Assembly (NCBI GenBank): GCA_963666735.1
Contig: OY762926.1
Location: 3,104,001 to 3,168,000 of the forward strand
Direction of reading: 5' to 3'
Length of the DNA stretch: 64,000 bases
Source: Gemmatimonadota bacterium
GTDB lineage: Bacteria; Gemmatimonadota; Gemmatimonadetes; Palauibacterales; Palauibacteraceae
Below, one piece after another: positions 21,438 to 21,591 of this stretch (position 1 is its first letter; every line of letters starts with the position of its first letter). Below the pieces are notes generated by a model. That model made no database searches. It had not been told where the DNA came from and was given only the letters and a program-made list of their open reading frames with translations. The translations under genes were made by a program, and so were the position numbers.

Positions 21438-21501
21438 CCCGCCGTCAAATCAGGCGTATAATTCCCAAACCTTACATGCCGGGTAACAGTCGGCATACTC
21501 T

Positions 21502-21591
21502 GGCTCCCCCGCGCGGGCGGGGACGGCGGGGCGCATCTTTTCTCTCCCCCGCCGATCGCCGCGGCTCCCCCGCGCGGGCGGGGACGGCGGG
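21502..21591 (+). CRISPR. Orphan mini-array: two identical 29-bp type I-E-like repeats and one 32-bp spacer
   Basis: GGCTCCCCCGCGCGGGCGGGGACGGCGGG at 21502-21530 and 21563-21591 (period 61); CCCCGC-4nt-GCGGGG hairpin in the same register as the E. coli I-E repeat; TATAAT at 21457-21462. Confidence 0.65.

What the first reader, a model, noticed from the sequence alone, without database searches (positions are those of the whole stretch)
21440..21591. Orphan type I-E-like CRISPR mini-array beside higBA in a decayed conjugative island
Seen: two identical 29-bp repeats separated by 32 bp (61-bp period), a CCCCGC-GCGG-GCGGGG hairpin followed by an 8-nt tail, and an AT-richer leader with a perfect TATAAT 39 bp upstream. 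Established: this length, period and hairpin register match type I-E repeats, and mobile elements carry cas-less mini-arrays that borrow host Cascade. The tail (ACGGCGGG) diverges from the canonical ATAAACCG, and there are no cas genes in the window. Inference: a single-guide module for inter-element competition, Cascade-based gene repression (CreA/CreR-like, here next to a protein TA pair) or an RNA anti-CRISPR decoy. This is the best candidate for an undescribed system here.
Basis: partly seen in the sequence, partly recalled or inferred. Interest (0 to 1): 0.85.

Follow-up and report, generated by a model that had tools for sequence, protein, structure and literature searches.

The report
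Leftover CRISPR stub with recopied repeat
The two repeats are a real but probably dead remnant of a CRISPR immune locus on a decayed mobile element; their broken form appears to have been copied once more when a new spacer was added, a small natural example of how mini-arrays can arise.

Summary
The two identical 29-bp repeats and the 32-bp spacer are real, and the repeats derive from type I-E. Their first 22 nt equal the repeat of a full I-E locus in a same-genus genome. Another relative carries a whole I-E locus at the same position of an ICE in the same tRNA-Ala site. The 'leader' TATAAT lies in an IS1595-family end fused to a truncated IS3, most likely the scar of the deletion that removed the cas genes. 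The host has two I-G systems; no I-E genes were found. The odd tail matches the DNA upstream of higBA in a relative, so the repeat looks chimeric. Public runs show three alleles: one repeat only; canonical-tail repeat plus another spacer; and this one. Best reading: a relic whose chimeric repeat was duplicated by ruler-type Cas1-Cas2 acquisition, supplied in trans or before cas loss. A guide role is unlikely: the handle has G at -3 and -2, which disables E. coli Cascade, and no promoter or target was found. The scan noted similar cas-less stubs on other DNA, not this element.

The parts
19789..19861 (+). tRNA-Ala(TGC), the integration site; its 3' 45 bp (19818-19862) are repeated at the far end of the island
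19973..20565 (-). virB3-like and trbC/virB2 pilin genes, left over from the conjugation module; about 15.4 kb (integrase to virB4) is missing to their left compared with the G109 ICE
   Evidence: Pfam; comparison with G109
20590..21097 (-). alpA-like gene (partial Pfam match) and a small ORF shared with sister ICEs in this genome
21137..21441 (+). Left 305 bp of an IS3-type element, cut off inside orfA; two full copies elsewhere in the genome
   Evidence: family hit below the curated cut-off, as expected of a fragment
21440..21466 (.). End (terminal inverted repeat) of an IS1595-family element; it contains the TATAAT
21467..21501 (+). 35-bp AT-richer stub, possibly the repeat-proximal part of a leader; unchanged in the listed differences of all four runs
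   Evidence: 10-nt match to the G110 leader, reached by 30 of 2000 shuffles; no match to the G109 leader
21502..21530 (+). Repeat 1: 22 nt of I-E repeat plus the foreign tail; by the I-E rulers 28 nt plus the first base of a 33-nt spacer
   Evidence: PMC5039180
21531..21562 (+). 32-nt spacer (33 with the preceding G); no target found; absent or different in other strains
21563..21591 (+). Repeat 2: chimeric terminal repeat; from 21584 on it aligns with non-CRISPR DNA upstream of higBA in G109
21584..22566 (+). higBA module (higB ORF 21670-22023, likely start 21742; higA 22040-22345), 91% identical to a repeat-free copy in G109
23055..23099 (+). attR: 45-bp exact copy of the tRNA-Ala 3' end

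Best explanation
An inert relic of an ICE-borne type I-E CRISPR-Cas locus, with one late spacer capture. (1) Shown by comparison: ICEs at this tRNA-Ala site can carry a full I-E operon and array between trbC and attR. (2) Inferred: an IS1595-family element entered the leader region, an IS3 entered further left, and a deletion between them removed the cas genes. (3) Inferred from alignment: the right end of the array was fused to a higBA module inside a repeat, leaving 22 nt of true repeat plus foreign DNA. (4) Shown: strains carry one chimeric repeat; a canonical-tail repeat, another spacer and the chimeric repeat; or two chimeric repeats with this spacer. (5) Inferred: the last form arose when I-E Cas1-Cas2, which measures 28 bp from the hairpin motifs whatever sequence follows, inserted a 33-nt spacer and copied the chimeric repeat. 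The enzyme came from another I-E element in the cell or acted before the cas genes were lost. (6) Inferred: any RNA made now has no I-E Cascade in this host and a handle that should not support interference, so the stub does nothing.
For: G109: the ICE at the same tRNA-Ala (identical att core) holds integrase, T4SS genes, virB3/trbC, cas3-cas8e-cas11-cas7-cas5-cas6e-cas1 and a 46-repeat array before attR. Six long arrays match the window repeat at 20-22 of positions 1-22 but at 1 of positions 23-28, which points to replacement and not point mutation. G109's repeat-free higBA module aligns from 21584, the 22nd base of repeat 2. Three alleles at the same IS junction in 4 of 4 runs from 4 studies. 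Both ruler motifs give 28 (PMC5039180). I-E Cas1-Cas2 can fill a plasmid array in trans with 33-bp spacers (10.1101/2023.06.23.546257 section 6). Spacers in G109 and G110 are 33 nt in 44 of 45 and 71 of 73 cases; host I-G periods are 71-79. Handle G at -3/-2. Stem-breaking change at 21521 in repeat 1 of X10 and X12 suggests relaxed selection.
Against: G109 is not a direct ancestor: its repeat differs at 2 of the first 22 nt, its higBA copy lies at another locus, and the identical 22-mer is in G110, whose I-E locus is not at tRNA-Ala. The tail match is 7 nt across a 2-nt gap, and that 7-mer is common (3035 places in the genome). No I-E cas1 is in this genome to have made the acquisition. The 35-bp stub is not clearly a leader. 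The X7 allele rests on one contig of depth 4. No protospacer was found, so the spacer's foreign origin is not shown. Spacer turnover between strains is also what working mini-arrays show (PMC6858448, passages).
Confidence: 0.7

Rival explanations
1. Relic of an I-E array, but the two identical chimeric repeats arose by recombination or slippage among repeats and not by Cas1-Cas2.
For: No I-E cas1 in the host. Repeats recombine readily, and the single-repeat allele of X7 can be such a product. The 3' half of the spacer resembles the repeat's reverse complement at 13 of 15 columns.
Against: Recombination copies or deletes units; it does not explain 32 new bases between two copies whose length fits both I-E rulers. 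The spacer-repeat likeness is within chance: reached by 13 of 299 real spacers, 278 of 3000 shuffles and 306 of 3000 random genome pieces.
Confidence: 0.13
2. A working cas-less mini-array: it borrows Cascade from co-resident or incoming I-E elements to target rival elements or to repress higBA or cas genes.
For: Spacer differs between strains. Hairpin intact in both window repeats. I-E systems occur in 2 of 35 other genus genomes. TA genes are enriched next to regulatory mini-arrays (10.1101/2023.03.03.530964, passages).
Against: No I-E effector in the host. Handle G at -3 and -2. The predicted 61-nt RNA folds its handle back onto the spacer. No seed match in the island other than itself, none of 10 nt in the G109 ICE or G110 cas region, best match in higBA 17 of 32, at or below most shuffles. 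higBA stands without repeats in G109. The unit is in 0 of 113 other family genomes.
Confidence: 0.07
3. An RNA anti-CRISPR-like decoy: the transcript binds Cas6e through its intact hairpin but cannot build an active Cascade, so it dampens I-E systems on incoming elements.
For: Intact I-E hairpin with a non-functional handle is the anatomy a decoy would need. Racrs against I-E were shown to work (PMC10651486, passages). An IS end could supply a -10 box.
Against: 82.9% of prophage solitary repeats have a matching cas subtype in the host (PMC10651486); this host has none. No promoter-like site. Not conserved in other genomes. The island has lost its integrase.
Confidence: 0.06
4. Not CRISPR-derived: a chance GC-rich duplication, REP or iteron.
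For: The genome is 68% GC, the lone repeat folds no better than shuffles (z -0.53), and single chance matches to stem plus tail turned up once each in two collections.
Against: 22 of 22 identity to the G110 I-E repeat, period 61, a canonical-tail allele with another spacer in two runs, and no dispersed copies.
Confidence: 0.02

Closest known systems
Orphan or remnant CRISPR arrays left by loss of cas genes (a V-A example in 10.1101/2023.03.03.530964, passage seen)
   Same: Degenerate terminal repeat, no cas genes, full locus at the matching site in a relative.
   Different: Here the degenerate, apparently chimeric repeat is present twice with a new spacer between, and sister alleles survive in other samples.
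Type I-E CRISPR arrays (E. coli; G109 and G110 loci)
   Same: Hairpin motifs, 28+33 geometry, first 22 nt of the repeat.
   Different: Last 6 nt replaced, handle G at -3/-2, leader cut by an IS end, no cas genes.
Regulatory mini-arrays (CreA/CreR, crRNA-like RNAs; 10.1101/2023.03.03.530964)
   Same: Two repeats, one spacer, a toxin-antitoxin pair next door. That paper suggests some mini-arrays may come from truncation followed by re-acquisition, which fits this case.
   Different: Those lie in cas loci and have seed matches with PAM in promoters; neither was found here.
Cas-less mini-arrays of viruses (PMC6858448) and type IV-A3 arrays filled by I-E Cas1-Cas2 in trans (10.1101/2023.06.23.546257)
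   Same: On a mobile element, no adaptation genes, spacer turnover between strains.
   Different: No matching host effector, no own effector (no Csf2), no target in rival elements, no promoter-bearing leader.
RNA anti-CRISPRs / solitary repeat units (PMC10651486)
   Same: Repeat mimic without cas genes; the X7 allele is a solitary repeat.
   Different: No cognate subtype in the host, no promoter found, ancestry as an array remnant is traceable.

Membership tests
Type I-E CRISPR array | 28/29-nt repeat with the two inverted-repeat motifs | tested here: met
Type I-E CRISPR array | 61-bp period, 32/33-nt spacer | tested here: met
Type I-E CRISPR array | Conserved 5' handle with C at -3 and -2 | tested here: not met
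   G at both; 1 of 6 identity at positions 23-28 to six arrays; requirement from PMC3764190. A canonical-type tail stands in the X10/X12 allele
Type I-E CRISPR array | Leader with promoter | tested here: inconclusive
   35-bp stub, weak likeness to the G110 leader; TATAAT is in an IS end; no promoter-like site
[quoted passage not shown] | cas3, cas8e, cas11, cas7, cas5, cas6e, cas1, cas2 in the locus or genome | tested here: not met
   genome 94% complete, one contig; the Pfam controls rang in only 1 of 14 control genomes, but PF09344 found G109 and G110
Type IV-A | Csf2 (Cas7) effector gene | tested here: not met
   (no control genome passed the cut-off, so the blank is weak); other csf genes not searched
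Regulatory mini-array (CreA/CreR, crlRNA) | Located in a cas locus of the same subtype | tested here: not met
Regulatory mini-array (CreA/CreR, crlRNA) | Seed match with PAM in a toxin or cas promoter | tested here: not met
   window spacer only, without a PAM filter; the variant spacer of X10/X12 was not searched
Regulatory mini-array (CreA/CreR, crlRNA) | Processed small RNA that represses the target | not testable with these tools
   needs small-RNA sequencing and reporter assays
MGE competition mini-array | Spacer matches a rival mobile element | tested here: not met
   mobile elements of this habitat may be poorly sampled
MGE competition mini-array | Spacer turnover at the same position | tested here: met
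Racr / solitary repeat unit | Expressed repeat mimic that inhibits the cognate system | not testable with these tools
   cognate system not found in the host; inhibition needs an assay
Orphan/remnant array | No cas genes, full locus at the matching site in a relative, rearrangement scars | tested here: met
REP-like dispersed repeat | Many copies across the genome | tested here: not met

The most novel reading that the evidence does not exclude
A cas-less, handle-dead mini-array in the making: a repeat made chimeric by a rearrangement stays a substrate for visiting I-E Cas1-Cas2, goes on recording spacers, and its hairpin-intact transcript acts as a decoy against I-E systems on incoming ICEs. 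It would be a natural, allele-by-allele record of the 'truncation then re-acquisition' route from immune array to RNA anti-CRISPR.
Probability: 0.07. Interest if true: 0.65.

Novelty: new member of a known kind. Interest (0 to 1): 0.3.

Why it matters
As a system it is ordinary decay. Its value is as a natural case for two ideas. First, that I-E integrase copies a fixed length regardless of the tail sequence, shown with engineered repeats in E. coli (PMC5039180). Second, that mini-arrays can arise by truncation and re-acquisition, offered as a possibility in 10.1101/2023.03.03.530964. One search for a documented natural case listed a single paper, PMC12814883, which I did not open, so I make no claim that none is in print. 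It also warns that a TATAAT ahead of a mini-array may be an IS end.

Tried and rejected
REP or dispersed repeat: rejected. A family of arrays with this tail: stem-plus-tail scans gave 0 in viral contigs, 1 in genome contigs and 1 in metagenome contigs, both single copies without a second repeat; these exact-pattern scans would miss other stem variants. Rfam at gathering threshold: only the tRNA. Protospacer: own genome best 8-9 mismatches; family 114 genomes and a phylum sample of 401, no full-length match among listed rows, with 483 rows not listed; phages 1 record and plasmids 33 records, best listed E 0.7; viral contigs 0 exact. Spacer as guide to the tRNA att site: no match in the island. 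Spacer as a template-switch copy of the repeat: within chance. Integron attC upstream of higB: no better than shuffles (z 0.88). Seven short hits to the DNA upstream of higB in other genomes (L061, L111-L116) and one to the tail (L117) were GC-rich chance matches, so G109 is the only outgroup for the tail. PAM of the G109/G110 systems: no spacer had a full-length match in the DNA at hand. Mini-arrays inside the G109/G110 cas regions: best repeat-like match 17 and 19 of 28. No RNA holder listed. Only 4 of the 20 runs that hold the stretch could be laid. A search with a guessed phylum name gave nothing I used; no call names the host taxon.

Full report
Observation. The window holds two identical 29-nt repeats at 21502-21530 and 21563-21591 around a 32-nt spacer. 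In the whole genome (G000, 3.98 Mb, 68% GC, one contig, 94% complete) 26 places lie within 7 mismatches of the 29-mer; only these two are exact and the next best has 6 mismatches, so it is not a dispersed repeat. With up to 3 mismatches it occurs in 1 of 114 family genomes, this one. Run X3 holds a contig identical to 21408-21852; it may come from the source population, so it guards against assembly error only.

The repeat is of type I-E origin. The hairpin pair at period 61 is found in 3 of 114 family genomes: G000, G109 and G110. G109 and G110 are the 2 of 114 with Cas7e. All 7 G110 proteins and all 3 G109 proteins scanned against PADLOC gave I-E profiles as best hits. Six long arrays (G109, G110, G404, G238, G394, G250; cas genes checked only for the first two) match the window repeat at 20-22 of the first 22 positions, G110 at 22 of 22, but at only 1 of positions 23-28. 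Their spacers are 33 nt after a 28-nt repeat in 44 of 45 and 71 of 73 cases.

The host has no matching system. Its two long arrays have 37- and 36-nt repeats with periods of 71-79, and the neighbouring genes are Cas7g, Cas5/6g and Cas3g, type I-G (9 of 10 ORFs scanned had hits). Cas6e, Cas7e and Csf2 profiles found nothing; those controls were weak (1, 1 and 0 of 14 genomes over the cut-off). tblastn with seven G110 proteins gave nothing better than E 0.14 except short Cas3 helicase hits in the I-G loci, and one search repeated the blank for Cas6e.

Setting. The array lies in a 3.2-kb island between tRNA-Ala (19789-19861) and a 45-bp exact copy of its 3' end (23055-23099). It holds virB3, trbC, an alpA-like gene, the left 305 bp of an IS3-type element, the array and higBA. 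In G109 the same site, with the same left flank and att core, holds a 36.7-kb ICE: integrase, ArdC, coupling protein, T4SS genes, virB3/trbC, an S24 repressor, a full I-E operon, a 46-repeat array, IS21 and IS3 elements, attR. The window lacks about 15.4 kb from integrase to virB4 and everything between the control region and the array. G109 is a model and not the direct ancestor: its repeat differs at 2 of 22 positions and its higBA copy lies elsewhere.

The 'leader' is mostly an IS end. 21440-21469 matches both ends of a 3-kb element in G085 (28 and 27 of 30 nt) that is flanked by 8-bp direct repeats and encodes an IS1595-family transposase (PF12762 and PF12760). An IS1595-family element with 8-bp AT-rich target repeats is described in PMC12561309 (passages). 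The TATAAT (21457-21462) lies inside this end, which joins the truncated IS3 directly. No other copy of the end is in G000. The remaining 35 bp are 49% GC and share 10 nt with the G110 leader, a score reached by 30 of 2000 shuffles: suggestive only. The promoter scan found 0 sites in 21100-22500.

The tail looks foreign. G109 has the higBA module at 91% identity with no repeat upstream, and the alignment starts at window 21584, the 22nd base of repeat 2, with 7 identical bases and then a 2-nt gap. That 7-mer is common (3035 places, 0.04% of positions), so the match alone is modest evidence, but it falls exactly where likeness to I-E repeats stops. I infer that the array's right end was fused to the module inside a repeat.

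Three alleles exist. Four runs of four studies were laid, of 20 that hold the stretch. X3 equals the window. X7 has one contig (depth 4) that skips 21502-21562, leaving one repeat, and no X7 depth is listed on the spacer. X10 and X12 each have one contig over 21408-21703 with 19 other letters and 6 gaps; 18 of the 19 in X10 fall in 21521-21560. Read from the table, repeat 1 there has a canonical-type tail, a G-to-A change at 21521 in the stem, and a different spacer of the same length; no change is listed in repeat 2 (195 rows of the table were not shown). All carry the IS3/IS1595 junction. Of five listed flanking differences, the window and X3 have the derived base at two, X10 and X12 at three, and X7 at none, taking G109 or other genus copies as outgroup; only 21648 is on the same contig as the repeats.

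Mechanism. A canonical-tail repeat cannot come from copying the chimeric one, so the X10/X12 form is either the older state or a recombinant with a canonical array. Loss of one unit between the shared 5' parts gives the X7 form. The window form needs the chimeric repeat copied with 32 or 33 new bases between. In E. coli, Cas1-Cas2 inserts the spacer 8 nt after the GCGGG motif and 16 nt after the CCCCGCG motif, whatever follows, and changes outside the inverted repeats lower acquisition at most 3-fold (PMC5039180, parts 1-2 of 4 read). In the window repeat both rulers end at position 28, so the unit is 28 + 33, with the 29th identical base being the spacer's first. Acquisition in trans by I-E Cas1-Cas2 is shown for IV-A3 arrays (10.1101/2023.06.23.546257, abstract and section 6). 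Truncation followed by re-acquisition is named as a possible origin of mini-arrays (10.1101/2023.03.03.530964, passages and Discussion). Steps about enzymes and order are inference; the alleles and the geometry are shown.

Function today. The would-be 5' handle has G at -3 and -2. In E. coli, resistance needs C at -3, and G or U at -2 interferes (PMC3764190, passages); whether this lineage's Cascade has the same rule is untested. The predicted 61-nt RNA pairs its handle with the spacer (folding no better than shuffles overall). The spacer has no seed match in the island besides itself, no 10-nt seed match in the G109 ICE or the G110 cas region, 4 other seed matches in the genome (shuffled seeds 0-49, median 2), and a best match of 17 of 32 in the higBA module, at or below 277 of 300 shuffles. 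No protospacer above chance was found in relatives, phages, plasmids or viral contigs. Against my reading: spacer turnover is real, as in working viral mini-arrays (PMC6858448, passages); TA genes are enriched beside regulatory mini-arrays; the variant spacer's target is still open; and expression could not be examined.

Verdict. A real I-E-derived two-repeat stub, most likely inert (0.7 for the full account, about 0.83 for relic in either form). It is a new member of a known kind, orphan or remnant arrays. It is not a member of I-E systems, type IV, CreA/CreR-like regulators or Racrs by the features tested. Earlier notes of this scan describe cas-less stubs in other genomes; none is this element, and I did not check them. 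No supplementary files were read; bioRxiv supplements were closed and could list I-E mini-arrays like this one.

Noticed in passing
window 22594-22755: About 160-bp element with inverted ends, 85-94% identical copies in several genus genomes (7 listed in G111); MITE-like.
   Followed up: no
L069:4800-5180 (G109) and L067:6440-7090 (G110): Small gene pairs just upstream of cas3 that read like a HicA/HicB pair (G109) and a nucleotidyltransferase/HEPN pair (G110); names recalled from the sequence printed, not family-searched.
   Followed up: no
G000:C1:146148-162130: One host I-G locus lies next to an integrase of this ICE family, so these ICEs seem to carry different CRISPR subtypes as cargo.
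   Followed up: partly
G000:C1:1254750-1255685 (L139:8750-9685): The second I-G locus has an extra, shorter Cas5/6g gene, and its cas4-cas1 lies on the opposite strand beyond the array.
   Followed up: no
window 21186, run X10: A loose end here reads like window 20401-20430 in trbC, hinting at a further deletion allele next to the IS3 end.
   Followed up: no
G085:C14:27007-30015 (L075): IS1595-family element carrying a DNA methylase-HNH passenger gene, inserted in what reads like another methylase gene.
   Followed up: partly
G110:C1:2852530-2852630 (L068): The trailer of the G110 I-E array is interrupted by about 90 bp of IS-end-like sequence inside a repeat.
   Followed up: no
window 21450-21620, minus strand: Read backwards, the spacer holds a purine-rich stretch followed by ATG, as if taken from a gene start; it opens a 28-codon frame across repeat 1, probably fortuitous.
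   Followed up: no
window 43512-43608: ARAGORN calls a 97-nt tRNA of undetermined type that Rfam did not list at gathering threshold.
   Followed up: no
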